Below are positions 2,261 through 28,810 of a DNA stretch of 64,000 nucleotides, piece by piece (position 1 is the stretch's first letter; each line of letters starts with the position of its first letter). The DNA lies in the NCBI GenBank assembly GCA_038060895.1, contig JBBTCT010000022.1, positions 32,001 to 96,000 on the forward strand, given 5' to 3'. The notes beneath the pieces were generated by a model. That model did not search any database, was not told the origin of the DNA, and saw only the letters and a list, made by a program, of their open reading frames with translations. Position numbers and translations under genes: made by a program. This stretch comes from Planctomycetota bacterium. GTDB taxonomy: Bacteria; Planctomycetota; MHYJ01; WSZJ01.

Positions 2261-3028
2261 TTACGCTCCGCAGCCGCTGCTTTCGATTTCTTCGGGATCG
2301 TCCTCATCGACCGCCTGAGGTTCCGGCGGAATCGGGACCGGCTCCGCGCTGACCTGCCCTGGCGTCACGCCGAGGCGCTTCACGTCCGCTCTCAGGAGGG
2401 CTGCCAGAAGCGCTCCATACGCCTGATGCAGCGGGGAAGGCGCCTTCTTGGCGAGGATCTCGCCGAAGACGGGTCCCCACCGCCCGATGTGGTCCTTCAG
2501 GAACCCACGCGCGGCCTCAAGCGTCCGCTCGGCCCCTTCCGTCTCGCCGCGTTCCAGCGCCAGAAGCTGCTTCACCGCGAGGAAATGCACGAACTCGAGT
2601 TCCAGCCAGGCGTGATCGACGCGTTCCCCGGTGCCGGGCCGCACGCGCAGGCCGAAGGCGCCGTAGAAGGCCGAGACATCCGCGAGGTCCTGCGTCTCCT
2701 GGAACGGATGCGAACTGCCGTATCTCGTTTCGTGAGGCGGGAAGGTTTCAGAAATTGTGTGCCCGTACGTCATGACATGGAGGGACTCCAGCTGTTCGTC
2801 GGTCATATCGCGAAGCTCGCGGCCCACCGCCTCAACGGCGGCTTGCACATCCGCCGCCGCGGCGTCCTCCCACAGTTGCGACAGCGCCGCGCTCGGCAAC
2901 TCTTCTCGAAGGATCTCCGCCAGGCCGGGGCGCGGGTACGCGAAAACACGTGAGAGGAACCGGTAATACGCAGCACGGGCAAAAGCGAGGTCGGACTCCA
3001 GGGCGAGATGGGCGAGCGTGGCGGTCAT
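2261..3028 (-). CDS. TorD/DmsD-family chaperone for the type II DMSO-reductase-family enzyme
   Basis: PPHETRY, LADVSAFYGAFG, ERVDHAWLELEF and FLKDHIGRW motifs; last gene of the nxr operon. Confidence 0.9.
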   Translation of the reverse strand: MTATLAHLALESDLAFARAAYYRFLSRVFAYPRPGLAEILREELPSAALSQLWEDAAAADVQAAVEAVGRELRDMTDEQLESLHVMTYGHTISETFPPHETRYGSSHPFQETQDLADVSAFYGAFGLRVRPGTGERVDHAWLELEFVHFLAVKQLLALERGETEGAERTLEAARGFLKDHIGRWGPVFGEILAKKAPSPLHQAYGALLAALLRADVKRLGVTPGQVSAEPVPIPPEPQAVDEDDPEEIESSGCGA

Positions 3029-3078
3029 GGATGTCTCCCTCAGGGGTCAACCCCGGCCAGGAAAAGTCCCGGCCTGGT

Positions 3079-4353
<1,275 letters not shown>

Positions 4354-4366
4354 GGGTGGAGCCTCC

Positions 4367-4639
4367 TTAGTTGCCCGCCTGCGGAGACGGGCTCCATTCG
4401 CGGAGCACGCCGTCGATCACCCGTTCCACGAACTCCTGCCCTCGCTCGGCCCACACCCTGTGGGTGCCGGCGTAGAACGGGTCCTGAAAGAGCCGGACCA
4501 GCCGCTCGCGGTCGAACCCGGTCAGCAGGAATTCTTCGACCACGGCCTTCGTCATTTCCTCGTCGGCCTTGGGGCCGGCGGGGATGGACATCCCGACGAA
4601 CTCCAGCGGGTCGTCCTCTTCGAATTCCTTTTCCGGCAT
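4367..4639 (-). CDS. small hypothetical protein between nxrA and nxrB
   Basis: 90-aa ORF with RBS, in operon; DDPLEFVG..EEF..LFQDPFYAGTH. Confidence 0.75.
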   Translation of the reverse strand: MPEKEFEEDDPLEFVGMSIPAGPKADEEMTKAVVEEFLLTGFDRERLVRLFQDPFYAGTHRVWAERGQEFVERVIDGVLREWSPSPQAGN

Positions 4640-4723
4640 GGTCGTTTCCCTCAGGAAAGGGCCTTTTTCCGACGTGCGCCCCGGTTCCAGGGCGCCCGGC
4701 GCTTCCTACTTCAAAACCGGTGC

Positions 4724-7700
4724 CTATCCCTTCGTCACCTTGCCCAGCACGTACTTCTTCATGAAGTCGCTCTCGCCGCCCGGCGCGAACCCGCTGGCCG
4801 CCGGCGCCCAGACTCCCTGGCCGTTCATGCCGCCGTTCTCCGCCTTCGTCACCTTGACCAGCGTCTCTTTCGGGACTGTGTTGACGGCATGGTTGTCCGC
4901 CTCGCCGCCGAAGATGAAGCCCATCCTGGCCTTGGCCTTGTGGAAGAGCGAGTCCAGCTGGTGCATCGGCATGAGCCAGCCGCGCGTGACGGACTGCTGC
5001 GAGCCGTACCGGAAGCTCGACTGGTAGCCGGTCCCGTCGGACTGCGCGCGGCCGTCTTCGCGCGTCTCGTGCGCCTTCACGGACTTCTCAGTCGCGATGA
5101 AGGGGGCGTGCTTCATCATCACGGCGCTGTACGGATAGGCCGCGTTGTACTTGGCGCGCAGCATCAGGCGACCGACCTTGTATTGCGGGTCGTCAGGCTT
5201 CCACCCGATGAACGGCCGATCCGCCGGATTCGCGTCCACGTAAACGTAGTCGCCGTCGGCAATCCCCAGGTCCTTCGCTGCCGCCGGGTTGATGTGCATC
5301 TGGTGCTCGCCCACCCCCGGTTGACGCTTGTCGCGCCGGTACGGGTCGCCGAACTGGTTGTTCCAGATGAAGTGCCAGTCCGTGACCTGCCACTGCGAGT
5401 GCGTCGAGTGGCGGGACTTCGGCGTGATGCAGTAGAACTTGAACCCCGCTTCCCACAGCGGATTCTTCGAGTTTTTCACCTCGCTCCACGGCTTCTTGAT
5501 GTTGCGAACCTGCCGTTCGTCCGCGCCCATCGCGGACTCCGGGATCCCGTACGATTCCGGCCGCACCCACGGGTTCGAACTCACGATCACGTTCGGCAGG
5601 TACGGCGTCGCTTCCGGCCCCTCGCGGTGCACGATGAAGTTCTCGCCGTACTCGATGACCTCGTCCTCGTCGTTGTAGGACTGAAGCCGGCCCGTGGGCG
5701 TGTAGAAGGGGAGGCTGTCCGCGATCTGTTCGTAGAACGGGATGCGCGGGTAGGTGCGGAAGAGGAAGAGCGCCGCGCCCGGCTCGCCGTACTTGCCGGC
5801 CATGATGTCCGAGCACTTGTAGCCGCGCGTCGTCGAGCACCCGTCGAGCAGGCGCTGGATGTAGACCTCGTTCCGGCCTTCCCGGGCGAACTTCCAGAGG
5901 TCCCCGACCCGCTGGTCCCCGATCTCGTCGCCAACGGCCTTCGCCGCGAGCGCCATGATCATCGTGTCGTCTTTGGTGTCGTAAACAGGCTTCGTCCCGC
6001 CCTTCCAGATCTGGATGAACGGATTCGAGCAGCATCCGGTGATCTCGAGGTCCTCGAACTCCAGCCAGGTGTTCGCCGCAAAGATGAGATCCGAGTACTC
6101 GACCGTCGAGTTCATCTCGATGTCCGTCCCCACGATCATCTCGATCTTCGTGTTCGTCCGCATGAGCATCTGGTACGCCCACTTTGCGTTGTTGAAGATG
6201 TTCACGTTCGTGTACCAGAGGAACTTCGTCGGCGTCGGCATGTGCGTCGCGCCCGTGAAGGACTTGCGTCCCTTGCCGGGCGTCTCAACAACGAGCGGCT
6301 TGTCGTCGTAGTTCCAGTACGCGGGTTCCTCGTCCTGCGAGTAACCGTGCGCGTGGACGTCCTTCCCGTCGATCTTGTCGTCCATCTCCGGGTGGAAGGG
6401 GTCCTCGGCGATCCAGCCCTTGAACCCGGGCCCGGACCAGGACGAGCCCTGGAAGAGCGCTGCCTTGTAGTTGCCGGCCCACGTATGCGACCCGGCGCCG
6501 GGCAGGCCGATGTTCCCGGTCAGCATGAGCGGCAAGTAGCTGGCCCGGTTCACCTCGGTCGCATGGAACCAGTGATTGATCCCTTCTCCCGTGTGGATCG
6601 CGACCGGCTTGATGGTCGCGATGTCGTCGGTCAGGCGACGGATCAACTCCTTCGGCGCACGGGTGATTTCGTGCACGCTGTCGAGGTCGTAGTCCTTCAG
6701 GTGGACGTTCTTGTAGAGGTCGAAGAGCGGCCGGACCTCGACTTCCTTCCCGTCCACCGTCTTCACCTTGAATGTTCCCTCGAGCGCCGGCTCCACGCCG
6801 AGCTTGTCCCAGAGAGCTCCGACGTCGTCGCGCGTCACGACCTTCGGCCCGTTCGACTTCGTGTCCCAGACCACGAAATCCCCGAGTTTCACGTACTGCT
6901 CCTGCGTCAGCCCGTGCTTCGTGAAACTCGCGCCCTTGCTGATGTCCGGCGAGGCGTAGTCCTTCAAGATGTCCTTCGCCTGCAGCCGCTTCAGCGTGTC
7001 CTGCCGGACGAGCAGCGGGAAATCGGTGAAGCGCTTCACGAACGCCTCGTCGTACTTCTTCTCGTCCATCATGAGCTTGGTGATCCCGAGGAGCAGCGCG
7101 GTGTCGCTGTTCGGGCGGATCGGGAGCCAGTAGTCGGCCTTGGTCGACGGCGGCCCGTATTCGGGCGCGATGACGACAATCTTCGCGCCGCGCTCCATGC
7201 ACTCGACGAAGAAGTGGTTGTCGGCGCGCTTGTTCTCGATGAGGTTTTTGCCGAGCTGGATATGGAGCTTGGTGAAGCGGAAGTCGTTCATGTCGGTGTC
7301 CGAGGTCTGGAGGCCGTGCACGAACGGCTGGCCCGGGGCCTGGTCGCCGTGCCAGGTGTAGTTCGACCAGCTGCGGGCGCCCTTGGCTTCCTTCGCGTCC
7401 ACGCCACGGATCTTCGCGTCCACGAGGGCGAGCGAATTGCCGAAACGGTACATGCCGTACTTGCCGATGACGCCGAGGAGGCCCATGCCGCCGCGGACCT
7501 TGCAGACGCGCGTGCCGGCGCCGCCGTGGTGCAGCAGCATTTCCTCGGCGTACCCCTGCGCGCGGAGCTTGTTCTTCCCTTCTTCGCCGCTGTACCGCTT
7601 GCTGATGTTCACGAGTCCCCTGGCGAAGTACTTGAAAGCGTCGTCCCAGCCGATCTTCACGAGCTCGTCAGTCCCGCGCGAATCGAACTTGTACTTCTTG

Positions 7701-8164
7701 TGGTTGTCGGGAGTGAGCTCGGGGAAGCCGTCGTCCGCCCATTGCTTCCACATCTTGCGGATGAGCGGGTACCGCATCCGGTACGGGCCGTACATCCGGC
7801 GTTGCATGGTGAATCCGTTTGAGCAGCCGCGCGGGTTCCAGTTCACCGTCGCCTTGTTGCCGTAGACATCGCCGATCCGCCCGCTGTCGTAGTTCTGCTC
7901 GCTGCGCAGCACGACCCCGTTGCGGACAAAGGCCTTCATGCGGCACGCGTGCGTGCAGTTGGGCGAGCACACCCAGGTGAAGCTCGAGTCGTACCGGAAC
8001 TGCTCGCGGTAGACCTTCTCCCAGTCGCGCGCTGGATACCCCGCCAGCGGGTCGATGTCCGGGAACGGTTCAAAGGCCCCGAGGTTGAGGCCGCCGGAAG
8101 CGAGGAATGCGGCACTTCCCGCAAGACCTGCGGACTTCAGGAAGTCGCGACGGTTAATGGACAT
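4724..8164 (-). CDS. nxrA: nitrite oxidoreductase / periplasmic nitrate reductase alpha subunit (Mo-bisPGD, Tat-exported)
   Basis: 1146 aa from MSINRRDFLK (twin-arginine); CSPNCTHAC...NPRGC Fe-S motif; WSNYTWHGDQAPG with the Asp Mo ligand. Confidence 0.92.
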   Translation of the reverse strand: MSINRRDFLKSAGLAGSAAFLASGGLNLGAFEPFPDIDPLAGYPARDWEKVYREQFRYDSSFTWVCSPNCTHACRMKAFVRNGVVLRSEQNYDSGRIGDVYGNKATVNWNPRGCSNGFTMQRRMYGPYRMRYPLIRKMWKQWADDGFPELTPDNHKKYKFDSRGTDELVKIGWDDAFKYFARGLVNISKRYSGEEGKNKLRAQGYAEEMLLHHGGAGTRVCKVRGGMGLLGVIGKYGMYRFGNSLALVDAKIRGVDAKEAKGARSWSNYTWHGDQAPGQPFVHGLQTSDTDMNDFRFTKLHIQLGKNLIENKRADNHFFVECMERGAKIVVIAPEYGPPSTKADYWLPIRPNSDTALLLGITKLMMDEKKYDEAFVKRFTDFPLLVRQDTLKRLQAKDILKDYASPDISKGASFTKHGLTQEQYVKLGDFVVWDTKSNGPKVVTRDDVGALWDKLGVEPALEGTFKVKTVDGKEVEVRPLFDLYKNVHLKDYDLDSVHEITRAPKELIRRLTDDIATIKPVAIHTGEGINHWFHATEVNRASYLPLMLTGNIGLPGAGSHTWAGNYKAALFQGSSWSGPGFKGWIAEDPFHPEMDDKIDGKDVHAHGYSQDEEPAYWNYDDKPLVVETPGKGRKSFTGATHMPTPTKFLWYTNVNIFNNAKWAYQMLMRTNTKIEMIVGTDIEMNSTVEYSDLIFAANTWLEFEDLEITGCCSNPFIQIWKGGTKPVYDTKDDTMIMALAAKAVGDEIGDQRVGDLWKFAREGRNEVYIQRLLDGCSTTRGYKCSDIMAGKYGEPGAALFLFRTYPRIPFYEQIADSLPFYTPTGRLQSYNDEDEVIEYGENFIVHREGPEATPYLPNVIVSSNPWVRPESYGIPESAMGADERQVRNIKKPWSEVKNSKNPLWEAGFKFYCITPKSRHSTHSQWQVTDWHFIWNNQFGDPYRRDKRQPGVGEHQMHINPAAAKDLGIADGDYVYVDANPADRPFIGWKPDDPQYKVGRLMLRAKYNAAYPYSAVMMKHAPFIATEKSVKAHETREDGRAQSDGTGYQSSFRYGSQQSVTRGWLMPMHQLDSLFHKAKARMGFIFGGEADNHAVNTVPKETLVKVTKAENGGMNGQGVWAPAASGFAPGGESDFMKKYVLGKVTKG

Positions 8165-9137
8165 TGGAACCCTCCTGAACCTGGGTGTTGGCGCAGCTTG
8201 CCCGGCTTGGAGCAAACCGCGTGCGAAAGACATAGGAGTCAAGGCACTGCCGGCACGCCCCGTCCGCGGGATCCCATCGCGGGAAGTCGGCGCGGACCAT
8301 GCCCAGCGTGATTTCGGGAAGAGCGGCGGCGTTGTCGTGCCACTCGAAGGTAGGGAAGCTGCAGAGCGGGCAGAGCGAGCCCGGGCCGCACGGCGATTCG
8401 GCTGCATCGATGCCGCAGAACCGGAGGAGTTTCTTCGGATGAAGCGAAAGTTCGATAAGGAGAGGCCAGGTGGCTTCCGGCGAGTTCCAGAGAGTTGCGA
8501 GGATTCGCTCGCGCGCCTCGGCGGGGAAGCCGGGATAGTTCCTCGTCACCATCGTCGCCCACTCTTCTTTCTTCGCCGCGCCGCGCTTCCCGGATCGTTC
8601 GATCGCGCCGGCAGCGACGAGATTCCAGAGAACACGAAGCCGGGCGCGGACGAGGTTTTCCTCGGCCGGGCGCGCCGCAATCCGGCCCAGCGCGCGGTAT
8701 TCGAATGCAGGCCGGAGCATGTCCTCGACGTGCTGCAGCTCGTGCCGGAAAAAACCCTCCAGCGCCGATGGGTCGTCCAGGCGGTGCACCCGGAAGAGAA
8801 TGCGAACGTGGGGTTTGCTGCCCGCCGTGACGCACAGATCGGCTCCCTCGTCAGACGCCGTCGCGCAGCGGTCGAGGACCAGCTCTTCTACCGCCGGGCC
8901 CAGCGTCGGATATCCGGCAACGGCCGCTTCCAGCGACCGGGCGAGGCCCAGCTGGCGATAGAAAACCGCGTTGGCGTCGCGGAAACCCGCGTTTCGCTCC
9001 GTCTCCTGCATGGCGTAGAACGGGTCCGTCACGACGTGGAAATCGCGGCTCCATGCGGCGTCCCCGGCGGTTTCGCGCCGGAGGATCTCCCGCGCAACCG
9101 CTTCTTCCAGCAACTCGGGGGCGTATCGCAGTTCCAC
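8154..9137 (-). CDS. hypothetical protein with HExxH motif and C-terminal CxxC pairs, in the nxr operon
   Basis: GTG start after AGGAGAG; RHELQHVEDML, CPLC and CRQC; overlaps the nxrA start. Confidence 0.75.
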   Translation of the reverse strand: MELRYAPELLEEAVAREILRRETAGDAAWSRDFHVVTDPFYAMQETERNAGFRDANAVFYRQLGLARSLEAAVAGYPTLGPAVEELVLDRCATASDEGADLCVTAGSKPHVRILFRVHRLDDPSALEGFFRHELQHVEDMLRPAFEYRALGRIAARPAEENLVRARLRVLWNLVAAGAIERSGKRGAAKKEEWATMVTRNYPGFPAEARERILATLWNSPEATWPLLIELSLHPKKLLRFCGIDAAESPCGPGSLCPLCSFPTFEWHDNAAALPEITLGMVRADFPRWDPADGACRQCLDSYVFRTRFAPSRASCANTQVQEGSNVH

Positions 9138-9148: not shown

Positions 9149-10810
9149 CTACTTCAGGACCAGGCGGTACCACGTCGTGACGGACTTCTGTCCGGCGCGA
9201 TCGCCCGCGGCGCCGTCCCAGACGGCGAAGGCGAGCGGAACTTCCGTTCCCGCCTTGAGGGCGATGCAGCATTCGTCCGGCGAAGCGAGCGAGCGGCTCA
9301 TCTGGATCGCCCAGCGACCGTCTTTCCACACTCCCTTGCCCGCGACCGACTGCTTGTCGCTCTTGAGGCTCGTCAGCGTCCCGAATCCTGCGGCGACCGC
9401 ATCCTCAACCGGCGACTTGCGCCCGGGTTCCGAGAACGGGTTTCCCGCGGCACGCCCCGACTGGTACGCGGGATCGTGATCGGGCATCCCGGAAGGCCTG
9501 TTGCCCTTGTTCTCCGTCGTCTTGTCACCCTTCTCGAACGGATACATCTCCACCGCCATCCCCGGGTGGATCGTCTCCACGTCCTTCCACTTCTCGAGGT
9601 CGATCTGCCAGTCCGCCTTCCAGCTCCACACGTTCACCGGCTGGTCCTTCGAGCCCATCGTCACAGGCGTGTCCATGCCCTTCAGCGCGAACATCAGCGC
9701 CGCCGCATCCCGGAAATCCTCGGCGCGAAGCGGCACGTTGTTGTCGGCGCTGTCCTGCCACGAAAGCTGGAAGGCCACCGCCTTTCCGTCGTGTGCGGCG
9801 CGGACCCGGAGCAGGCGCGGGGCCGTGATGCGGCTGAAGAGCAGCATGAGGGGCACGTCGACCGCCGGGATCGAGTCCCAGGCCGCGTCCGCAGGGTCCT
9901 TCGGGAGAGCGGATACCTTGGCGGCGACGAGTTCGCTTCCGGCCGGAAGCGCCGCCGCGAGGGCTTTCGGCGCTTCGCCCGCCAGCGACTGCACGTAGTG
10001 CACGAGGGCCCAGCGCTGTTCGTCGTTCATCTGGTCGGCGCCGTAGGCGGGCATGGGTGTGCCGGACATGCCGGTGGCGAAGCGGAGGTAGATGTCTTTC
10101 GCTGTCGATCCGCCGCGATAAATGCCCTGGGTGAAGTCGTTCGGGCGGATTGGCTGGTCCCAGTCGTCCTTGAGGCCGGCGGCGGAGGGTCCGTCAGAGC
10201 GCCCGGTTTCGCCGTGGCACTTGACGCACCCCGCCTTCACGTACATCTCCTTGCCGAGCGTGCGGGATTTTTCATTGTCTGCGGGCTCGGCGGGGACGGC
10301 GACGGGGGTGCCGGCGCCGCGTTCCTTGAAGAAGTTGTACGGGGCGTCCATCTCGCTGTCCTGGTACTGCGCGAGCTCCTTGACGCGTTCCACGAGCGCC
10401 TTTCGGTCCGCTTCCGGGAGGTGCCGCCACGAGGGCATCGAAGTCCCGGGCATGCCGTTGGTGACGCTGGCGAGGAGGTCTTCGTCGGTCGGGAGCGACC
10501 CGCTGGGCGTCGAGCGGATCTTGAATTTCCCCTTCGAGAAGTCGCGGGGGCGCGGCCAGAGAAGGTAGGCCGCCGTACCGTCGCCCCTGCCGAGGGTGCC
10601 GTGGCAGACGGCACAGTTCGATTCGAAGAGTGCCTTGCCGTCGGCGGCCGCGTTGCCGCCGGCGCCGCCGCCCGCGCCATCACCGCCGAGCGAAACGGGA
10701 GAGGGACCCGACGGAGGTGCGGGGCGCTGCTGGCAGGCCGCGATCCAGAAGACGGACGAAGCGAAGACGGCTAGGGCCGTTTTGTTCAAGAGACTGGTTC
10801 TGCTCGTCAT
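9149..10810 (-). CDS. lipoprotein: diheme cytochrome c fused to an EbdC/NxrC-like heme b domain (candidate gamma subunit)
   Basis: lipobox IAAC; CAVCH and CVKCH; C-terminal MG..PVNVWSWKA and AVWDG..DRAGQK (Met/Lys heme ligands); RBS GGAGGAGG. Confidence 0.85.
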   Translation of the reverse strand: MTSRTSLLNKTALAVFASSVFWIAACQQRPAPPSGPSPVSLGGDGAGGGAGGNAAADGKALFESNCAVCHGTLGRGDGTAAYLLWPRPRDFSKGKFKIRSTPSGSLPTDEDLLASVTNGMPGTSMPSWRHLPEADRKALVERVKELAQYQDSEMDAPYNFFKERGAGTPVAVPAEPADNEKSRTLGKEMYVKAGCVKCHGETGRSDGPSAAGLKDDWDQPIRPNDFTQGIYRGGSTAKDIYLRFATGMSGTPMPAYGADQMNDEQRWALVHYVQSLAGEAPKALAAALPAGSELVAAKVSALPKDPADAAWDSIPAVDVPLMLLFSRITAPRLLRVRAAHDGKAVAFQLSWQDSADNNVPLRAEDFRDAAALMFALKGMDTPVTMGSKDQPVNVWSWKADWQIDLEKWKDVETIHPGMAVEMYPFEKGDKTTENKGNRPSGMPDHDPAYQSGRAAGNPFSEPGRKSPVEDAVAAGFGTLTSLKSDKQSVAGKGVWKDGRWAIQMSRSLASPDECCIALKAGTEVPLAFAVWDGAAGDRAGQKSVTTWYRLVLK

Positions 10811-11366: not shown

Positions 11367-12167
11367 ATGATCCGCATGTCCCAGCTTGCCCCTGCCGTCC
11401 TTTCCCTGGCGATCGCAATTCTGGCCTCCGGCTGCGGCGATTCGAGCAGCGAACCCGGCGCGGGCGAAGGCAAGCCGGCCGACGGCGCCGGGCAACCGAC
11501 CGGTCCGGAAGTGAAAGTAGACACCGCCACCGCAGGCACGATCTCAGGCGCCGTGAAATTCGAAGGAGCGGCCCCGACCGAGCGCGTCAACTCCGCCGAG
11601 GCAGACGCCTTCTGCCACTCGAAACACCCGGAAGGGATCAAGAGCGAATCGGCCGTCATCGGCGCCGGCGGAGAACTCGCCAACGTCTTCGTCTGGATCA
11701 AAAAGGGAATCACCGGCAAATTCCCGCTTCCGTCAGAACCCGCCGTGCTCACGCAGAGCGGCTGCCGCTACGAGCCGCATGTGCTGGGGCTCCGGAACGG
11801 ACAGGATCTCGTCGTCAAGAACGACGACGACACCATGCATAACGTCCACTCCCTGCCGAAGGCCAACGAGGAATTCAACTTCGCGCAGACGAAGAAGGGG
11901 GACGAAGCGCGGAAGAAGTTCTCTTCGCAGGAAGTGATGGTCAAGTTCAAGTGCGACGCGCACGGGTGGATGAGCTGCTACGTCGGCGTCGTCAATCACC
12001 CCTACTTCGCGGTCACCGCCGCTGACGGAAAATTCGAGCTCAAGAACGTGCCGCCCGGCGAGTACGAAGTCGAGGCGTGGCACGAGAAGTTCGGGAAGCA
12101 GTCCCTGAGCGCAAAGGTTGAGTCGAAGGGGACCGCCACTCTCACCTTCACCCTGAAGGAGAAATAG
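11367..12167 (+). CDS. lipoprotein with cupredoxin-like and carboxypeptidase-regulatory-like domains
   Basis: lipobox ASGC; GCRYEPHV, HNVH and KCDAHGWM (Cys/His/Met copper-type motif). Confidence 0.8.
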   Translation: MIRMSQLAPAVLSLAIAILASGCGDSSSEPGAGEGKPADGAGQPTGPEVKVDTATAGTISGAVKFEGAAPTERVNSAEADAFCHSKHPEGIKSESAVIGAGGELANVFVWIKKGITGKFPLPSEPAVLTQSGCRYEPHVLGLRNGQDLVVKNDDDTMHNVHSLPKANEEFNFAQTKKGDEARKKFSSQEVMVKFKCDAHGWMSCYVGVVNHPYFAVTAADGKFELKNVPPGEYEVEAWHEKFGKQSLSAKVESKGTATLTFTLKEK

Positions 12168-15424: not shown

Positions 15425-15427
15425 GGG

Positions 15428-16048: not shown

Positions 16049-16056
16049 GACGCGAC

Positions 16057-16574: not shown

Positions 16575-16590
16575 TAAAGTGCATTAACTA
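16572..16590. promoter_or_regulatory. operator palindrome, site 2
   Basis: TAGTAAA-GTGCA-TTAACTA, 15 bp upstream of the start at 16606. Confidence 0.8.
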
Positions 16591-23132: not shown

Positions 23133-23146
23133 GGATGCACGATATA

Positions 23147-23165
23147 TAGTAAATGCCATTAAATA
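23147..23165. promoter_or_regulatory. operator palindrome, site 3 (aldolase/DUF1800 divergent region)
   Basis: TAGTAAA-TGCCA-TTAAATA. Confidence 0.8.
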
Positions 23166-23224
23166 AATGGAAACCTTCGGGGCCCAGCCGGGTTTCCATC
23201 CCGGACGCCCTTCGGAGAACCCCG

Positions 23225-24712
23225 ATGCCCAATCCCCTCGCCCCGGTCACTACCTCTTCGTGGGACCGCTCCCGCGCCCGTCACCTCCTCAACCGCGCCG
23301 GTTTCGGGATCCCGCTTCATGAGGTAGATCGCCTCGCCGCCATGTCCCCTGAGGCCGCGGTCGCCCGCTTCGTCGAATTTGAGGCGCGCCCCGACTGGTT
23401 CCAGCCCCCCGACTTCCTCCCGGCACCGTTTGATTTCGCCGCAAAGCGCCGCGAAGTCGCCGGCCTCACCGAAGAAGAACGCAAGGATCTCTTCAAGGAA
23501 CGCATGCGCGAGGAACACCAGGCAATGGCGCAACTCCAGGACTGGTGGCTCGACCAGATGCTCACCACGCTTCAGCCCCTCCAGGCCAAGCTCACCCTGT
23601 TCTGGCACGGCCACTTCGCCACGTCCGCCCAGAAAGTAAAGTCCTGCCGCAACAACTGGCAGCTCTTCCAGGTGTTCCGCGAAAAGGCTGCAGGGAGTTT
23701 CCGGGAACTGGTCCGCAGCGTCGGGAAGTCGCCCGCCATGCTCGAGTACCTCGACAACGAGAAGAACAAGAAGGGGCACCCGAACGAGAACTGGGCCCGC
23801 GAGCTGATGGAGCTGTTCACGATGGGGCGCGGGAACTACACGGAGGACGACATCAAGGAAGCGGCGCGCGCATTCACGGGGTGGATGCGCGTCGGCGAGA
23901 AGTTCTGGTTCAACGCGCACGCGCACGACGACGGCGTGAAGACGGTCCTGGGCCGGAAGGGCGACTTCGACGGCGACCAGGTTGTGGACATCGTCGTGGA
24001 GAACCCCGCCACGGCGAAGTTCGTGGCGAAGAAGATGTGGGAGTTCTTCGCGTACGAGGAGCCCGAGACTGAGGTCGTCGAAGGGCTCGCGCGTGTTTTC
24101 ACGGAGGCGAAATTCGAGCTCAAGCCGCTTCTCCGGGCGATGTTTCTCTCGGAGGCGTTCTACTCGCCGCGCTCCGTTGGGAACCAGGTCAAGAGCCCGG
24201 TGCAGCTGGTGCTCGGGCTTCTGGACGGCCTGGACGTCCCGCTGGCGCTGGAGTCGGGGCGGTTCGCGCGGCTCATCCTGACCGGGCTGGGGCAGGATCT
24301 GTTCCACCCGCCGAACGTGAAGGGGTGGCCGGGGAACCGCGCGTGGATCGACACGAACACGCTGCTGCTGCGCTGCAACGCGGCGGGAATTCTCGTCAAC
24401 GGGCTCGACCCGGAAGACATGGCGGGAGGCGAGGGGGAGGGGGCGCGCCGGCGCGGGTTGCCGCGGCGGATCCGGTCGCCGTTCGAGGCGATGAAGTGGG
24501 CGGGGCGGCGGATGGCAGGGGCGAAGACGGCGGAGGAGGCGGCGGACCGTGTGACGGAGATCCTGCTGGGCCGCAGGCCGACGGCAGAGCAGCGCACCGT
24601 GCTGGCGCGCGCGCTGGGCGCCGGGACGGGGCAGGCCTGGAAAGCGAACGAGGATGGGGTGCGCGCGGTCGTGCACCTCGTGACGTCGATGGCGGAATAC
24701 CAACTCTGTTAG
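23225..24712 (+). CDS. DUF1800 family protein
   Basis: HLLNRAGFG, FWHGHFATS, PNENWARELMELFTMG, PPNVKGW. Confidence 0.92.
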   Translation: MPNPLAPVTTSSWDRSRARHLLNRAGFGIPLHEVDRLAAMSPEAAVARFVEFEARPDWFQPPDFLPAPFDFAAKRREVAGLTEEERKDLFKERMREEHQAMAQLQDWWLDQMLTTLQPLQAKLTLFWHGHFATSAQKVKSCRNNWQLFQVFREKAAGSFRELVRSVGKSPAMLEYLDNEKNKKGHPNENWARELMELFTMGRGNYTEDDIKEAARAFTGWMRVGEKFWFNAHAHDDGVKTVLGRKGDFDGDQVVDIVVENPATAKFVAKKMWEFFAYEEPETEVVEGLARVFTEAKFELKPLLRAMFLSEAFYSPRSVGNQVKSPVQLVLGLLDGLDVPLALESGRFARLILTGLGQDLFHPPNVKGWPGNRAWIDTNTLLLRCNAAGILVNGLDPEDMAGGEGEGARRRGLPRRIRSPFEAMKWAGRRMAGAKTAEEAADRVTEILLGRRPTAEQRTVLARALGAGTGQAWKANEDGVRAVVHLVTSMAEYQLC

Positions 24713-24713
24713 C

Positions 24714-24772
24714 GCCCTTCGACTCGCCCTTCGGGCTCGACCACTCTGAGCGAGCGGAGCGAGTCGAAGGGC
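24714..24772. repeat. REP-like intergenic inverted repeat
   Basis: GCCCTTCGACTCGC...GCGAGTCGAAGGGC. Confidence 0.65.
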
Positions 24773-24785
24773 TCAGGAGGTTTTG

Positions 24786-26015
24786 ATGTCCACGAACAAC
24801 GTCGTCTTCACCCGTCGCGAGTTCATGCGGACGTCGGCTGTCGTCAGCGCGGGGCTGACGCTTCCCGCATTCCTCACCGGATGGCGTGGCCTCGCGCAGG
24901 CTGAGGAACCCGGCGCGGGCGGGCGCATCCTCGTCGTCCTGCAGTTGGGAGGCGGCAATGACGGGCTGAACACGCTCGTCCCGTACACGGACGACGCCTA
25001 CCGCCGCGCGCGGCCGACGCTCGGTCTGGCGAAGGAGCGCGTGCTCGACATCGACGGCCGCTTCGGCTTCAACGATTCGCTCGCGGCTATTAAAGGCCTC
25101 TTCGACGACGGGAAAGTCGCCGTCGTCCACGGCGTCGGCTACCCCAACCCCGACCGGTCACACTTCCGCTCCATGGACATCTGGCACACCGCCTCTGACT
25201 CGGACCGCTACGAGACGACGGGCTGGCTCGGGAGGTACTTCCACAACTGCTGCGGCGGGAAGCCGGACCCCGTGACCGGGGTGAATGTGGGGGCGAAGAT
25301 GCCGATGGCGTTTGCGGGAAGCGACGTGGGGGTCTCCTTCACGAACCCGGCGTGGTTCCGGTGGCTGCCGGGGGACGGGGCGGACACGGAGAAGGCGTAC
25401 CGGGAGCTGAACGCGGGGAAGGGTGAGGGGACGCTCGACTACCTGCGGTCGGTTTCGGCGAGCGTGGTGGCGACTTCGGACAAGGTGCAGGCGGTGGCGC
25501 GGAAGCGGCGCGCGGCGGGGGAGTATCCGCAGAGCCGGTTCGCGGACGACCTGAAGACGGTCGCGAACATGATCCTGGGTGGGCTGCCGGCGCGGGTTTA
25601 CTACGTGTCGATGACGGGGTTCGACACGCACGCGGGGCAGGCGGGGACGCAGGATCGGCTGCTGAAGGAGTTCGCGGAGGGGGTGAAGGCGTTCCACGGC
25701 GACCTGGCGAAGGCCGGGGCTGCGGAGCGCGTGCTGATGATGAGCTTCAGCGAATTCGGCCGCCGGGTGGAGCAGAACGCCAGCGGCGGAACCGATCACG
25801 GGACGGCGGGGCCGATGTTCGTGATCGGGGAAGGGGCGTTGCCGGGGCTCAAGGGGACGCCGCCGAAGCTGACGGACCTGGAGCAGGGGGACCTGAAGCA
25901 CACGGCGGACTTCCGCGCGGTGTACGGCGAGGTCGTGTCGCGGTGGCTCGGGGGGGACGCGAAGCAGGTGCTCGGGCGCGACCTGCAGCCCCTGGGGGTC
26001 GTGCGGGCGGTGTAA
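24786..26015 (+). CDS. DUF1501 family Tat-exported protein
   Basis: TRREF twin-arginine; LGGGNDGLN, RSHFRSM, GFDTH, SEFGRR, GTDHG. Confidence 0.92.
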   Translation: MSTNNVVFTRREFMRTSAVVSAGLTLPAFLTGWRGLAQAEEPGAGGRILVVLQLGGGNDGLNTLVPYTDDAYRRARPTLGLAKERVLDIDGRFGFNDSLAAIKGLFDDGKVAVVHGVGYPNPDRSHFRSMDIWHTASDSDRYETTGWLGRYFHNCCGGKPDPVTGVNVGAKMPMAFAGSDVGVSFTNPAWFRWLPGDGADTEKAYRELNAGKGEGTLDYLRSVSASVVATSDKVQAVARKRRAAGEYPQSRFADDLKTVANMILGGLPARVYYVSMTGFDTHAGQAGTQDRLLKEFAEGVKAFHGDLAKAGAAERVLMMSFSEFGRRVEQNASGGTDHGTAGPMFVIGEGALPGLKGTPPKLTDLEQGDLKHTADFRAVYGEVVSRWLGGDAKQVLGRDLQPLGVVRAV

Positions 26016-26056: not shown

Positions 26057-26075
26057 TAGTTAATCACCTTAACTA
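26057..26075. promoter_or_regulatory. operator palindrome, site 4 (perfect), upstream of the nod-like gene
   Basis: TAGTTAA-TCACC-TTAACTA. Confidence 0.88.
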
Positions 26076-26123: not shown

Positions 26124-28535
26124 ATGAACATCGCCCGATGGCTTGACCGCCGCGAATCCTGGTGGAAGGTCTTCGTCGTCATCTTCGCAGTCAGCGTCAC
26201 CGTCGTCGGCTACATCGGGTACAAGACCTACCAGTACGCCCCGCCGGTCTGCGACTTCGTGGACGAGTCCGGCAAGACCGTCTTCTCCGGCGCCGACATC
26301 ACCGCGGGCCAGAAGGTCTTCCTCCGCTACGGCCTCATGGAATACGGCTCCTTCCTCGGCGACGGCGCCATGCGCGGGCCCGACTTCACCGCGGAGGCGC
26401 TTCACCAGACCGCCCTCTCCATGAACGCGCAGTACGACGCCGAGTGGAGCGTCCGTATCCCCGACCTGGTGCAGCGCAAGGCGATCGTCGAAGCGCTCGT
26501 GCAGAAGGACATCAAGGAGAACCGCTTCAAGGACGGCAAAGTCACGGTGAACGCGGCGCAGGCGGCGGCGTTTGAGCGCCTGCGGCTGTATTACTCGCAG
26601 AAATTCGGGGCCGGCGGCGAACTGGCGGGGAAGGAAGTCTTCAAACCGGAGAACTACATCACCGACCAGGAGAAAATCCGGCACCTCACGGCGTTTTTCT
26701 ACTGGGGAGGCTGGCTCTGCTCTGCCAAACGCCCCGGCTACGAGTACAGCTACACGCACAACTGGCCGTACGACCCGCTGGCGGGGAACGTCCCGCACGG
26801 CGGTCTCGTGATGTGGAGCGTGATCGGAACGCTGGTCGTGATCCTGACGATCGGCGTGATCTTCTACTACTACGGGCGAATGGACCGGGAAGCGGTGCTC
26901 GAGCAGCAGAAGGCGCACCTGCCGCCGCTCGCGACGTCGGATGTGGTGGACCGGTTCAAGCCGACGCCGACGCAGCGCGCGACCTACAAGTTCTTCGCGG
27001 TGGCCGCGCTCCTGTTCCTTTTCCAGGTCACTGCGGGCCTGCTCGCGATCTCGGATTTCGTGAATCTCGTGAGCTGGTTCGGGTTCGACCTGCGGGCGGC
27101 GATCCCCGTCACGATTTCGCGCATGTGGCACTCGCAGTTCTCGGTCCTGTGGATCGCGGTCTGCTGGTTCGCGGCGACGATCTGGGTGATGCCGCTCATC
27201 TGCCGCCCCGAACCTCGCGGCCAGCTCGGCTCGATCAACCTGCTTTTCGCCATGCTGGCGACCGTCGCGGCCGGCGCCATCTTCGGCATTCCCCTCGGCA
27301 TCCACGGCAAGCTCGACTACGGCGACGCGTGGCGCTGGTTCGGCCTGCAGGGCTGGGAGTTCATGCAGATCGGACGAGCGTTCCAGGCCGTGCTCTACTC
27401 GTCCTTCGTCCTCTGGCTCGTGATCATCACCCGCGGCGTCTGGCCCGCGCTCAAGCAGAAGCAGACCTGGTCGCTCCCCAACTGGATGGTCTACTCGATC
27501 GCCGGCATCATTTTCATGTTCAGCGCGTCGTGGGTCGCCAGCCCGGACACCAACTTCGTCATCGCCGACTTCTGGCGCTGGTGCACGATCCACATGTGGG
27601 TCGAAGCGTTCTTCGAGTTGTTTACGACGATCATCGTCGCCTACTTCCTCTACCTCATGGGGTTCGTGTCGCACCTCGTCGCGGCGCGCGTCGTGTACCT
27701 GTCGGCCGTGCTGTTCCTCGGAAGCGGCATGATCGGGATTTCGCACAACTTCTACTGGAACGCGAAGTCGATTGAGACGATCGCGCTCGGCGGCGTCCTC
27801 TCGTCGCTCCAGGTCGCGCCGCTCGTCCTGCTCACGATCGAGGCGTGGCGCTTCCGCCACCTTCCGCAGCACTCGCTCCGCGGCTCCACCCAGACGTTCG
27901 GCCTCGGGGAAGCCTTCCTCTTCCTCGTCGGCGTCAACTTCTGGAACTTCCTCGGCGCCGGCGTGATGGGATTCATGATCAACCTGCCGATCGTGAACTA
28001 CTACCAGCACGGGACGTACCTCACCGTCAACCACGGCCACGCCGCCCTCATGGGCGTCTACGGCAACCTAGCCGTCGCCGCCATGCTCTTCTGCTCCCGC
28101 TGGAACGTCGGCCCGTCTCGCTGGAACGCGAAGCTCCTGCGCACGTCGTTCTGGTCGCTCAACGCCGGCCTCATGTTCATGGTCGTCTTCGATCTCTTCC
28201 CGGTCGGCATCCACCAGCTCGCCGCGGCCATGAACCATGGCTACGCCTACGCGCGCTCGCAGGAGTACCTGTCCGGCACCGTCTTCCAGACCCTGACCTG
28301 GCTCCGTGGCATCGGCGTCGCGGTCTTCGTCACCGGCGGGGTCCTCCCGCTCACGTGGTTCATGGTCACTCGCTGGTTCAACCTCAAGCCGCCCCAGACG
28401 CGCGAAGAGCAGTTCATCGTGCCGCCCTCCGTCCTCGCCGTCTCCAGCCCGAGCGTCCTTACCGCCCGCGGCGTGCCGGACCGGGAGCCCGAAGGCGCCG
28501 GCTTGCTGCGCGACCCGGGGAAGGATCCGCTGTGA
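26124..28535 (+). CDS. qNor-family heme-copper-superfamily protein with NO-dismutase (Nod)-type substitutions
   Basis: GDGAMRGPDFTAEALH, YTHNWPYDP, HMWVEAFFE, GISHNFYW (HH to HN), SSLQVAPL (E to Q), NHGHAA. Confidence 0.85.
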   Translation: MNIARWLDRRESWWKVFVVIFAVSVTVVGYIGYKTYQYAPPVCDFVDESGKTVFSGADITAGQKVFLRYGLMEYGSFLGDGAMRGPDFTAEALHQTALSMNAQYDAEWSVRIPDLVQRKAIVEALVQKDIKENRFKDGKVTVNAAQAAAFERLRLYYSQKFGAGGELAGKEVFKPENYITDQEKIRHLTAFFYWGGWLCSAKRPGYEYSYTHNWPYDPLAGNVPHGGLVMWSVIGTLVVILTIGVIFYYYGRMDREAVLEQQKAHLPPLATSDVVDRFKPTPTQRATYKFFAVAALLFLFQVTAGLLAISDFVNLVSWFGFDLRAAIPVTISRMWHSQFSVLWIAVCWFAATIWVMPLICRPEPRGQLGSINLLFAMLATVAAGAIFGIPLGIHGKLDYGDAWRWFGLQGWEFMQIGRAFQAVLYSSFVLWLVIITRGVWPALKQKQTWSLPNWMVYSIAGIIFMFSASWVASPDTNFVIADFWRWCTIHMWVEAFFELFTTIIVAYFLYLMGFVSHLVAARVVYLSAVLFLGSGMIGISHNFYWNAKSIETIALGGVLSSLQVAPLVLLTIEAWRFRHLPQHSLRGSTQTFGLGEAFLFLVGVNFWNFLGAGVMGFMINLPIVNYYQHGTYLTVNHGHAALMGVYGNLAVAAMLFCSRWNVGPSRWNAKLLRTSFWSLNAGLMFMVVFDLFPVGIHQLAAAMNHGYAYARSQEYLSGTVFQTLTWLRGIGVAVFVTGGVLPLTWFMVTRWFNLKPPQTREEQFIVPPSVLAVSSPSVLTARGVPDREPEGAGLLRDPGKDPL

Positions 28536-28810
28536 AATGGTTTCCCTTCGGGCCCGCGGCGCAAGAGCCGGCGAAGAAACTCCCGGTCATCGACCGCGGT
28601 CTGTGCACGGGCTGCGGCCTGTGCCTCGCCGCCTGCACGAACGGCTGCCTCGCATTTTCGTGGAGCCTCGCCGACCTGAAGCGGCCCGAGTGCTGCACGA
28701 GCGAAGGGCATTGCGCGGCCGCCTGTCCCGATGGGTTCATCGAGATGAAGTGGGTCGCCGCAAAAGGGGAGCGCGGTATTGGTGAGTGGAGCGAAGGGGG
28801 AGTCGCATGA
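28532..28810 (+). CDS. 4Fe-4S dicluster ferredoxin
   Basis: CTGCGLCLAAC and CCTSEGHCAAACP; GTGA-coupled to the upstream gene. Confidence 0.8.
   Translation: MKWFPFGPAAQEPAKKLPVIDRGLCTGCGLCLAACTNGCLAFSWSLADLKRPECCTSEGHCAAACPDGFIEMKWVAAKGERGIGEWSEGGVA

What the first reader, a model, noticed from the sequence alone, without database searches (positions are those of the whole stretch)
2261..28810. NXR + Nod-like enzyme + aa3 oxidase in one locus: candidate oxygenic nitrogen-oxide respiration or nitrite dismutation module
Seen: a periplasmic Nitrospira/anammox-type nxr operon, an A1-type O2 reductase transcribed back-to-back with it, and a Nod-like gene about 10 kb downstream. The nxr/cox divergent region and the nod-like gene carry the same operator. 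Known: Nod is proposed to split 2 NO into N2 + O2, and nitrite dismutation to nitrate + N2 is a predicted metabolism. Inference: internally made O2 could be consumed by the oxidase using electrons from NXR. Alternatively, the NXR-type enzyme runs as a nitrate reductase for anaerobic aromatic oxidation and the oxidase only scavenges O2. No nitrite reductase or oxygenase gene is visible in this window.
Basis: partly seen in the sequence, partly recalled or inferred. Interest (0 to 1): 0.92.

Follow-up and report, generated by a model that had tools for sequence, protein, structure and literature searches.

The report
Anaerobic aromatic-degradation regulon with nitrogen-oxide enzymes
In an uncultured planctomycete, a nitrite/nitrate enzyme and a putative oxygen-making nitric-oxide enzyme share a control switch with genes for breaking down aromatic compounds without oxygen, which points to nitrate respiration plus nitric-oxide disposal rather than the proposed new oxygen-generating nitrite metabolism.

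Summary
The three modules and the operator are real: an anammox-type periplasmic NXR, a divergent A1-type oxidase, and a Planctomycetia-type Nod with all NOD-type substitutions 9.8 kb further on.

The operator (TAGTTAAT-N3-ATTAACTA) is not specific to nxr, cox and nod. It also precedes benzoyl-CoA pathway genes, a Cys-tailed MarR heading bcrCBAD-like genes, DUF1800/1501 pairs and a hydrazine-synthase-like/Rnf operon. It lies 154 nt from nxrC and 383 nt from cox.

No nirK, nirS or nosZ was found here or in 7 genus-mates; no carbon-fixation marker was found here. The only candidate NO source is an unlinked Rieske/cytochrome b/octahaem HAO-like complex. nxr-cox-nod linkage was seen in one other genome only; benzoyl-CoA reductase is in 8 of 8 genus genomes.

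Best reading: an anoxic aromatic-degradation regulon, with NXR reducing nitrate and the Nod-like enzyme removing NO (product unknown). Nitrite dismutation is not excluded (about 6%).

Additional features: the oxidase lacks the K-channel lysine, and nod is followed by a conserved ferredoxin. The scan had noted NXR cassettes and this Nod branch on other DNA, and the HZS-like/Rnf operon just beyond this window.

The parts
2261..3028 (-). TorD/NarJ-type chaperone of the NXR operon
   Evidence: PF02613 E 1e-15; TIGR03482 below cut-off
3079..4353 (-). NxrB, iron-sulfur subunit
   Evidence: Fer4_11; TIGR03478 E 3e-77
4367..4639 (-). 90-aa conserved ORF of the NXR cassette, unknown function
   Evidence: present beside nxrA in 14 of 14 nxrA loci L020-L033, own included; no Pfam or NCBIfam hit
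4724..8164 (-). NxrA, Tat-exported molybdo-subunit of the anammox/Nitrospira type
   Evidence: 1773 bits to 7B04; twin-Arg N-terminus
8154..9137 (-). conserved ORF of unknown function between nxrC and nxrA (start inferred)
   Evidence: found in 9 of 14 nxrA loci, own included; no family hit
9149..10810 (-). NxrC: two c-type haem domains fused to an EB_dh haem-b domain; lipobox-like signal read from the sequence
   Evidence: PF00034, PF09459, TIGR03477
10965..10983 (.). operator, best site in the genome; 154 nt before nxrC, 383 nt before the cox operon
   Evidence: 35.5 bits; distances; also before nxrC in G002, G004, G007, not found in G003
11367..12167 (+). exported carboxypeptidase-regulatory-like domain protein heading the cox operon
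   Evidence: PF13620; paralogues at the second cox operon on C27
12172..12993 (+). Cox subunit II with CuA motif
   Evidence: PF00116, TIGR02866; CxxxCxxxHxxM in the sequence
13116..14861 (+). Cox subunit I, A1 motif (GHPEVY), D-channel Asp kept, K-channel Thr/Lys replaced by Phe359/Leu362
14864..16323 (+). two subunit-III genes (14864-15424, 15428-16048) and a small subunit-IV-like ORF (16057-16323)
   Evidence: the subunit-IV label is recalled, not from a family search
16572..16590 (.). operator before the NifB/NifX-domain gene and B12-binding radical SAM gene (16606-18724)
   Evidence: 30.2 bits
18882..22423 (+). oah-, SDR-, dch- and had-like genes of the anaerobic benzoyl-CoA ring-opening pathway
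   Evidence: top NCBIfam hits TIGR03200 (oah) and TIGR03201 (had); TIGR03189 (dch) is second to a generic enoyl-CoA hydratase; all below cut-off
23147..23165 (.). operator before DUF1800-DUF1501
   Evidence: 32.3 bits; also in G002 and G003
23153..26015 (+). DUF1800-DUF1501 pair, recurrent neighbour of this Nod family
   Evidence: both within the fetched flank in 25 of 80 nod loci
26057..26075 (.). operator 48 nt before the Nod-like gene
   Evidence: 31.1 bits; also before nod in G001, G002, G003, G007
26124..28535 (+). Nod-like qNor-family enzyme (Planctomycetia-type): H328>S310, E332>N314, H560>N542, E581>Q563, D746>V732; haem and other Fe ligands kept
28532..28810 (+). 2[4Fe-4S]-type ferredoxin overlapping the nod stop codon
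   Evidence: follows nod in 14 of 34 close-clade loci with enough flank
36314..40628 (-). ATP-dependent benzoyl-CoA-reductase-like genes (C, B, A, D order)
   Evidence: best equivalog hits TIGR02259-02263, below cut-off; B-like subunit in 8 of 8 genus genomes
40546..41103 (-). MarR regulator with conserved Cys-rich tail (CxxC-x5-C-x8-C); candidate operator-binding protein
   Evidence: PF01047; Cys tail conserved; weak site at 41177 (19.2 bits)
62795..62813 (.). operator 38 nt before the iorA-like 2-oxoacid:ferredoxin oxidoreductase gene
   Evidence: 23.4 bits

Best explanation
This is part of a roughly 70-kb anoxia-type regulon of a heterotrophic, facultatively anaerobic planctomycete. A Cys-tailed MarR repressor (inferred) binds TAGTTAAT-N3-ATTAACTA and co-controls four gene sets: benzoyl-CoA ring reduction and opening, the periplasmic NXR-type enzyme, the Nod-like enzyme with its ferredoxin and DUF1800/1501 pair, and an HZS-like/Rnf operon. 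Under anoxia the cell oxidises aromatic acyl-CoAs and passes electrons through quinol, a Rieske/cytochrome b complex and c-type haems to the NXR, run as a nitrate reductase (inferred). The Nod-like enzyme removes NO that comes from neighbours, from side reactions or from the octahaem HAO-like complex, and so protects Fe-S enzymes. Its product (N2O, or N2 + O2) is unknown; I lean to N2O. The K-channel-less oxidase is a genus-level neighbour of nxr that probably has its own promoter. Shown: genes, residues, operator sites, gene distributions. Inferred: regulator identity, inducing signal, NXR direction, Nod product.
For: Operator: a matrix built from relatives' sites puts 8 of its top 10 G000 hits in C22:42.9-112.8 kb, before nxrC, DUF1800, hzs-like, nod, nifB/rSAM, iorA, a second DUF1800 and marR. 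All 6 Cys-tailed MarR orthologues head bcr-like genes and have their best site 31-37 nt upstream (11-20.6 bits); 0 of 397 random upstream regions reach 15 bits. The bcrB-like gene is in 8 of 8 genus genomes, nxrA in 7 of 8, full-length nod in 5 of 8. Nod lies beside benzoyl-CoA genes in G001, G002, G003 and in L056; nxr lies beside them in G010 and G011 of another family. No nirK, nirS, nrfA, nosZ, bd oxidase, ACS or true RuBisCO was found in G000. Relatives carry this Nod in denitrifier-like sets: G008 has nxr, nirS, nosZ and nod as its only qNor-family match; G019 has nxr, nosZ and nod within 55 kb. nosZ occurs in 13 of 45 close-clade nod genomes and in 6 of the 13 that have nirS or nirK. 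The nitrate reducer Thermogutta is in this NXR clade (PMC10732223, passages). Fuchsman 2017 argued for N2O formation by these enzymes (PMC5723336, passages).
Against: NXR direction cannot be read from sequence. nxr and cox are back-to-back in 4 of 5 assessable genus genomes, which suggests selection for NXR-to-O2 coupling. All benzoyl-CoA hits are below the curated cut-offs, so the substrate may be another cyclic acyl-CoA. The Nod lacks the quinol site, so an electron entry for N2O formation is not shown. No fate for nitrite is evident unless it is the octahaem complex. 32 of 45 nod genomes gave no nosZ match. The training sites were picked with a consensus from G000, and a reversed-genome control gives 7 hits above 16 bits against 13 real ones, so weak sites, including the marR one, are near noise. 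Two of the six marR sites score under 13 bits.
Confidence: 0.55

Rival explanations
1. Auxiliary aerobic nitrite oxidation. NXR oxidises nitrite and feeds the adjacent K-channel-less oxidase through the NxrC dihaem, using external O2 (lithoheterotrophy). Nod is separate NO defence. This can coexist with the best explanation if the NXR is reversible.
For: nxr and cox are divergent in G000, G002, G003 and G004. A second, A2-type oxidase with an intact K-channel lies on C27 next to a multihaem gene, so the locus copy may be specialised. K-less A-family oxidases occur in acidophilic Fe2+ oxidisers, which also use a high-potential donor (bioRxiv 10.1101/2020.03.01.968255, passages). Suarez 2023 proposed nitrite oxidation for such Planctomycetota (PMC10732223, passages).
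Against: The operator groups nxr with anaerobic catabolic genes. No carbon-fixation marker was found. nxr-cox adjacency was seen in 0 of 8 genomes outside the genus and not in G006.
Confidence: 0.2
2. NO-fed micro-aerobic respiration. Nod dismutates externally supplied NO to N2 + O2, and the oxidase burns that O2 at once, which also protects the benzoyl-CoA reductase. NXR acts as nitrate reductase.
For: All NOD-type substitutions are present and match the published definition (PMC3413370 passages; PMC11549561 section 6). No nosZ in 8 of 8 genus genomes. The same scheme was proposed for Alphaproteobacteria with Nod, an A1 oxidase and no nitrite reductase (bioRxiv 10.1101/2023.11.21.568154, parts 1-3 of 5).
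Against: No Nod has been characterised biochemically. This clade is only 40-42% identical to the representative with the VEVTFEVF motif (linking that motif to Methylomirabilis is my recall). No bd or cbb3-type high-affinity oxidase was found. Making O2 under the same switch as an O2-labile reductase is costly (inference). Nod and cox are unlinked in G003.
Confidence: 0.12
3. First reader's module: intracellular nitrite dismutation, 5 NO2- + 2 H+ -> 3 NO3- + N2 + H2O. NXR supplies six electrons, two to an NO-forming nitrite reductase and four to the oxidase, which consumes the O2 made by Nod.
For: NXR, oxidase and Nod lie in one 26-kb stretch in G000 and G002, with operators at nxr and nod. A Rieske/cytochrome b/octahaem HAO-like cluster is at C24:36243-39604 and the octahaem is matched in 8 of 8 genus genomes; an HAO-like protein makes NO from nitrite in Kuenenia (PMC12758564, passages). 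With recalled potentials the NXR-to-oxidase step yields about -150 kJ per O2.
Against: No nirK or nirS in 8 of 8 genus genomes. The octahaem's closest solved relative is 4QO5, not the Kuenenia protein, and it has no operator site above 13 bits. No carbon-fixation marker was found. Synteny is not conserved. None of the 80 nod loci has a cox1 or an anammox-type nxrA in its flank of up to 10 kb, except a cox subunit-III end in the closest relative. Only 13 of 45 close-clade nod genomes have nirS or nirK.
Confidence: 0.06
4. Chance assembly. The modules were brought together by rearrangement in one lineage and are regulated only as generic anaerobic genes, with no metabolic link between them.
For: Neighbourhoods differ among genus-mates: nxr-cox, nod-bcr and hzs-rnf lie on three different contigs in G003.
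Against: The operator is kept before nod in 5 of 5 genus nod genes. Similar pairings recur in other families: nod with hzs-rnf in G008, and nxr, nosZ, marR and nod in G019.
Confidence: 0.07

Closest known systems
Kuenenia stuttgartiensis NXR-ABC (PDB 7B04) and the NXR-like operons of non-anammox Planctomycetota (PMC10732223)
   Same: Full-length NxrA match (1773 bits), Tat signal, NxrB, haem-b NxrC domain.
   Different: NxrC is fused to two c-haem domains; the host has no true HZS/HDH and no carbon-fixation marker; the operon shares an operator with benzoyl-CoA genes.
Planctomycetia-type Nod (OTU I of Fuchsman 2017; Elbon et al., bioRxiv 10.1101/2023.11.21.568154); NOD family of Ettwig 2012 and Ruff 2024
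   Same: His>Asn, Glu>Gln, lost quinol site; clusters with Scalindua, Planctomycetota and Verrucomicrobiota sequences (support 100, FastTree).
   Different: Elbon et al. found no functionally related neighbours for this type. Here it has an operator shared with nxr and bcr-like genes, a coupled ferredoxin and a DUF1800/1501 pair. It is only 40-42% identical to the VEVTFEVF-type branch.
A1-type haem-copper oxidase with a COX3 doublet (subtype a-III, PMC6431628) and K-channel-less oxidases of Fe2+ oxidisers (bioRxiv 10.1101/2020.03.01.968255)
   Same: GHPEVY, CuA, two subunit-III genes; Lys replaced by a hydrophobic residue.
   Different: The published K-less group is A2-type; this one has the A1 motif. 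The Lys is absent in 4 of the 80 related cox1 loci and in G002-G004, and kept in 76 of 80.
ATP-dependent (class I) benzoyl-CoA reductase pathway of facultative nitrate reducers such as Thauera (host example recalled)
   Same: BcrABCD-, Dch-, Had-, Oah-, Hcr- and Ior-like genes; MarR-type regulator ahead of the operon.
   Different: All hits are below equivalog cut-offs; the host is a planctomycete; the nitrate reductase would be a periplasmic NXR type and the NO sink a Nod type.
Nod plus A1 oxidase cryptic O2 cycle proposed for UBA11136 Alphaproteobacteria (Elbon et al.)
   Same: Nod, an A1 oxidase and no known nitrite reductase in one genome.
   Different: Different Nod branch; here NXR is added and the genes are physically close.

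Membership tests
Periplasmic anammox/Nitrospira-type NXR | Full-length NxrA closest to Kuenenia NXR rather than NarG, Pcr or Ebd | tested here: met
   1773 bits against 207 or less for the others
Periplasmic anammox/Nitrospira-type NXR | Tat signal, Fe-S beta subunit, haem-b gamma subunit, TorD chaperone | tested here: met
   (the Tat Pfam hit is weak, E 7e-4; twin-Arg motif visible)
Periplasmic anammox/Nitrospira-type NXR | Physiological direction is nitrite oxidation | not testable with these tools
   the enzyme class is bidirectional (PMC10732223, PMC12758564 passages)
NOD family | One non-haem metal His replaced by Asn; active-site Glu replaced by Gln | tested here: met
   N542 and Q563; Asn in all 79 of 80 loci that cover the site
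NOD family | Quinol site lost; haem ligands and the two other metal His kept; qNor fold | tested here: met
   S310, N314, V732; H336, H490, H541, H637, H639 kept; model matches 3AYF with TM 0.84/0.90
Methylomirabilis/HdN1-type Nod subclade | Falls in the branch of the O2-producing organisms | tested here: inconclusive
NOD family | Forms N2 + O2 from 2 NO | not testable with these tools
   no NOD is biochemically characterised (PMC11549561)
Canonical A1 aa3 cytochrome c oxidase | XGHPEVY, six His ligands, CuA, D-channel Asp | tested here: met
Canonical A1 aa3 cytochrome c oxidase | K-channel Thr and Lys in helix VIII | tested here: not met
   PTGIK of 6ADQ aligns to PFAIL; same in G002-G004
Canonical A1 aa3 cytochrome c oxidase | Haem a / a3 content | not tested
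   no haem A synthase search was run
Nitrite-dismutation module (predicted metabolism) | NO-forming nitrite reductase in the same cell | tested here: inconclusive
   nirK and nirS not found in 8 of 8 genus genomes; octahaem HAO-like candidate present
Nitrite-dismutation module (predicted metabolism) | Conserved linkage of nxr, oxidase and nod | tested here: not met
   seen in G000 and G002 only; broken in G003; nxr-cox adjacency in 0 of 8 genomes outside the genus
Nitrite-dismutation module (predicted metabolism) | Autotrophic carbon fixation | tested here: inconclusive
   RuBisCO-like protein only, no ACS; the ACL search had no positive control; genome 86.5% complete
Class I benzoyl-CoA reductase pathway | BcrABCD plus Dch, Had, Oah above curated cut-offs | tested here: inconclusive
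   complete gene set, all below cut-off
Anammox bacteria | True hydrazine synthase and hydrazine dehydrogenase | tested here: not met
   HZS-like genes only marginal (HZS_alpha 22.8 bits, cut-off 26.6); octahaem scores 72.5 of 900 against HDH

The most novel reading that the evidence does not exclude
The organism runs intracellular nitrite dismutation, or NO-driven oxygenic respiration, with non-canonical parts: a Rieske/cytochrome b/octahaem HAO-like complex (or the co-regulated HZS-like enzyme) makes NO, the Planctomycetia-type Nod makes N2 + O2, and a dedicated K-channel-less oxidase burns the O2 with electrons from NXR, all inside a heterotrophic aromatic degrader.
Probability: 0.06. Interest if true: 0.92.

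Novelty: new variant of a known kind. Interest (0 to 1): 0.45.

Why it matters
Whether Nod-type enzymes outside Methylomirabilis make O2 or N2O is an open question that affects nitrogen-loss budgets and claims of dark oxygen production. This locus gives the Planctomycetia-type Nod a regulatory and genomic context, which the one paper read that examined its neighbourhoods did not find: a defined operator, a candidate redox-sensing MarR, a coupled ferredoxin and a DUF1800/1501 pair. It also gives a regulatory argument for the direction of the widespread NXR-type cassette in heterotrophs. If the dismutation reading were true, it would be the first organism for a long-predicted metabolism. The comparison also points to better candidates for that test: two Verrucomicrobiota genomes with NXR, nirK and Nod and no nosZ match.

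Tried and rejected
Expression. Two aquifer metatranscriptome runs from one sample hold the nod stretch. Laid on window 8601-28600 they give only short contigs; the 16 listed pieces are 183-422 nt, at depth 2-3, near-identical, over cox, SDR/dch/had, the aldolase, DUF1800 and nod. Contigs cannot show level or strand and DNA carry-over is possible, so this is no evidence on co-expression.

Nod-ferredoxin complex prediction: no verdict, score 0.07 against a mark of 0.32. Not evidence either way.

NirK. The weak TIGR02376 hit on C9 is a copper-resistance multicopper oxidase.

Oxygenases. A PaaA-family diiron protein (C7) and a lone Rieske oxygenase alpha subunit (C42) exist, without operator sites or evident partner genes. 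Recalled AlkB motifs gave 0 hits among 12,237 ORFs. AMO/pMMO, chlorite dismutase and hybrid-cluster protein families were not searched.

Octahaem Tyr cross-link. Its presence could not be settled: the C-terminal region did not align to oxidative HAOs.

Regulator candidates. The two Rrf2 genes lie elsewhere with no operator site and were rejected. The sigma-70 scan of the divergent region found nothing.

Tree. The maximum-likelihood run timed out; FastTree was used instead (42 rows, chosen from about 90 loci and the top representatives).

Co-occurrence. Only 45 of the 80 nod loci (the close clade, 59% identity or more) were tested, and six of these genomes duplicate relatives counted elsewhere.

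Literature. Searches gave no paper describing this operator, the nod-DUF1800/1501 link or an nxr-cox-nod locus. The library lacks most subscription papers, and no supplements were read; those of Elbon et al. and Ruff et al. may list these genomes.

Full report
1. Observation. The genome is a Planctomycetota bin of 5.42 Mb, 86.5% complete; the window is C22:32001-96000. The minus-strand operon nxrC - ORF - nxrA - 90 aa - nxrB - torD-like spans 2261-10810. NxrA matches Kuenenia NXR 7B04 over its full length at 1773 bits, against 207 bits for the next PDB hit. NxrC joins two c-haem domains to an EB_dh haem-b domain. The oxidase operon starts 556 nt away on the plus strand, with a CuA subunit II, a GHPEVY subunit I, two subunit-III genes and a small subunit-IV-like ORF. 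The Nod-like gene (26124-28535) aligns to qNor 3AYF with H328>S, E332>N, H560>N, E581>Q and D746>V, and keeps the haem ligands and two metal His. These are the changes that define putative NOD (PMC3413370, passages; PMC11549561, passages and section 6). Its model superposes on 3AYF with TM 0.84/0.90.

2. The operator. The palindrome TAGTTAAT-N3-ATTAACTA has five strong sites in the whole genome, all on C22 within 54 kb; four are in the window, against none in 100 shuffles (the pattern was built from these sites). A matrix made from 11 sites of relatives ranks 8 of its top 10 G000 hits in C22:42.9-112.8 kb. These precede nxrC (35.5 bits), DUF1800 (32.3), an HZS-like/ApbE/Rnf operon just past the window (32.0), nod (31.1), the NifB-domain/radical SAM genes ahead of oah-dch-had (30.2), iorA (23.4), a second DUF1800 (22.6) and marR (19.2). 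A reversed-genome control gives 7 hits above 16 bits against 13 real, so only the strong sites are secure. The site in the divergent region is 154 nt from nxrC and 383 nt from cox. It is kept before nod in G001, G002, G003 and G007, and before nxrC in G002, G004 and G007, but was not found there in G003. The likely regulator is the MarR at 40546-41103, which has a conserved CxxC-x5-C-x8-C tail. All 6 orthologues found head bcr-like genes and have their best site 31-37 nt upstream (11-20.6 bits; two under 13), while 0 of 397 random upstream regions reach 15 bits. The assignment is inference.

3. The surroundings. Between and after the nitrogen genes lie oah-, dch-, had-, bcrCBAD-, hcr- and ior-like genes. 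All score below the NCBIfam cut-offs, so the exact substrate is open. The BcrB-like gene is in 8 of 8 genus genomes, nxrA (79% identity or more) in 7 of 8, full-length nod in 5 of 8. Ring reduction of this type is ferredoxin-driven and O2-labile (established knowledge, recalled).

4. Synteny. nxr, cox and nod share a contig in G000 and G002 only (93-96% identical proteins). In G003, nxr-cox, nod-bcr and hzs-rnf are on three contigs with unrelated flanks. nxr-cox adjacency holds in 4 of 5 assessable genus genomes and in 0 of 8 genomes of other families. None of the 80 nod loci carries a cox1 or an anammox-type nxrA in its flank of up to 10 kb, apart from a cox subunit-III end in the closest relative. 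What does recur beside nod is DUF1800 plus DUF1501 (25 of 80 loci; G000 has about six DUF1800 copies in 5.4 Mb). A distinct ferredoxin also recurs: directly downstream in 14 of 34 close-clade loci with enough flank, 1 of 34 far-clade loci, and 8 of fewer than 600 random windows. Kin are not independent in these counts.

5. Rest of the genome. No nirK, nirS, nrfA, nosZ, bd oxidase or ACS was found; the RuBisCO hit is a RuBisCO-like protein below all cut-offs; the ATP-citrate-lyase search had no positive control. nirK, nirS and nosZ were also not found in the 7 genus-mates (one weak partial PF02239 hit in G004 lies beside an HZS-like gene). Against my reading, there is a Rieske/cytochrome b/octahaem HAO-like cluster at C24:36243-39604. 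The octahaem is matched in 8 of 8 genus genomes (partially in two), is closest to 4QO5, and has the Kuenenia HAO-like 6H5L second. A Kuenenia HAO-like protein reduces nitrite to NO (PMC12758564, passages), so an internal NO source is possible. A second oxidase on C27 is A2-type with an intact K-channel.

6. The locus oxidase is unusual. Helix VIII reads PFAIL where 6ADQ has PTGIK. The same loss is in G002-G004 and in 4 of 80 related cox1 loci; 76 of 80 keep Lys. K-less A-family oxidases are described in acidophilic Fe2+ oxidisers (bioRxiv 10.1101/2020.03.01.968255, passages), so the loss does not rule out O2 reduction, but the label 'canonical aa3' is not met.

7. What the Nod branch does elsewhere. 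The protein groups with Scalindua, Planctomycetota and Verrucomicrobiota sequences (support 100) and apart from the branch with the VEVTFEVF motif (40-42% identity). That fits the Planctomycetia-type Nod of Elbon et al. (parts 1-3 of 5 read). Among 45 genomes of the close clade (45 of the 80 loci; six duplicate relatives), nosZ was matched in 13, nirS in 5, nirK in 10, nirS or nirK in 13, and an NXR of this type (55% identity or more) in 20. Six of the 13 nitrite-reductase bearers also have nosZ. G008 has nxr, nirS, nosZ and nod as its only qNor-family match; G019 has nxr, nosZ and nod within 55 kb. This leans to N2O as product, as Fuchsman et al. argued (PMC5723336, passages), but nosZ often occurs alone and other Nor types were not searched. 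Four genomes have NXR, nirK and nod with no nosZ match: two Scalinduaceae records and two Verrucomicrobiota records (L038, L046). The latter are better dismutation candidates than G000.

8. Mechanism. Most likely (0.55), the palindrome marks an anoxia regulon. Aromatic acyl-CoAs are reduced and oxidised; electrons go through quinol, a Rieske/cytochrome b complex and c-haems to the periplasmic NXR acting as nitrate reductase; the Nod-like enzyme clears NO. The coupled ferredoxin could replace quinol as electron donor; this is a hypothesis only. Rivals are aerobic nitrite oxidation through the adjacent oxidase (0.2, compatible with a reversible NXR), Nod-made O2 from external NO burned by the oxidase (0.12), full nitrite dismutation (0.06) and chance assembly (0.07). 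With recalled midpoint potentials, dismutation is feasible: +13.5 kJ for the NXR-to-nitrite-reductase step and about -150 kJ for NXR-to-oxidase. Nitrite dismutation is listed as one proposed explanation of anoxic nitrite oxidation (PMC11373643, passages). The Nod-to-A1-oxidase O2 cycle has already been proposed by Elbon et al.

9. Novelty. Each enzyme type is known: NXR-like operons in non-anammox Planctomycetota (PMC10732223, passages), Nod in Planctomycetota (PMC11828985, passages), K-less oxidases. The joint regulon, its operator, the Cys-tailed MarR and the nod-ferredoxin and nod-DUF1800/1501 links were not found in the nine paper searches. PMC11828985 does mention a 4Fe-4S protein near nod in one lineage. 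Also seen as passages: PMC8043111, PMC10286720, PMC6431628, PMC13608581. No supplements were read. Earlier scan notes cover NXR cassettes and this Nod branch in other genomes and the HZS-like/Rnf operon next door. Verdict: new variant of a known kind, interest 0.45.

Noticed in passing
G000:C22:96669-107700 (L014:2670-13684): HZS-beta/gamma-like, ApbE, HZS-alpha-like, multihaem and reduced Rnf genes carry a strong copy of the same operator; in G008 this operon lies within about 5 kb of nod.
   Followed up: partly
window 13116-14861: A1-motif oxidase without the K-channel; the same state in two Gemmatimonadota loci and one Acidobacteriota locus (L170, L171, L173), suggesting a small cross-phylum clade.
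   Followed up: partly
window 28532-28810: Trp-rich 2[4Fe-4S] ferredoxin family that follows the close-clade nod across Planctomycetota and Verrucomicrobiota; possible electron donor.
   Followed up: partly
window 23153-26015: DUF1800-DUF1501 pair near nod in 25 of 80 loci across phyla; only two held papers mention both domains.
   Followed up: partly
G000:C24:36243-39604: Rieske - cytochrome b - octahaem HAO-like cluster, conserved in the genus; candidate nitrite reductase.
   Followed up: partly
L038 and L046 (G045, G053): Verrucomicrobiota genomes with anammox-type NXR, nirK and Nod and no nosZ match: better candidates for nitrite dismutation.
   Followed up: no
G019:C14:38000-116000: Island with nxr, clade II nosZ, nod, a Cys-tailed MarR, DUF1800/1501 pairs, an HZS-alpha-like gene and an octahaem protein.
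   Followed up: partly
G000:C7:4436-5689: Lone PaaA/BoxB-like diiron protein with no NCBIfam match at E 1e-15 and no evident partner genes.
   Followed up: no
window 62824-63945 and 52442-53146: Membrane protein with no family hit that I labelled NnrS-like from recall, and a DUF2249-cupin fusion; possible NO-stress genes.
   Followed up: no
G000:C22:26645-34132: Globin-like sensor (label recalled), universal-stress-type genes, a MobB-like gene and a GAF-PAS histidine kinase lie next to the end of the nxr operon.
   Followed up: no
window 2052-2218: 67-nt inverted repeat, 90% complementary, just after the nxr operon; possible terminator or RNA structure.
   Followed up: no
window 33353-33472: 12-nt tandem repeat inside a lower-GC stretch (about 33-36 kb) that separates nod from the bcr-like genes.
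   Followed up: no
L124 and L125 (G003, G004): Relatives have a duplicated carboxypeptidase-regulatory-like gene and an extra subunit-IV-like ORF before cox2.
   Followed up: no
G001, G003, G004, G006, G007, G015: A second, 40-43% identical NXR-like molybdoenzyme occurs in several relatives but not in G000.
   Followed up: no
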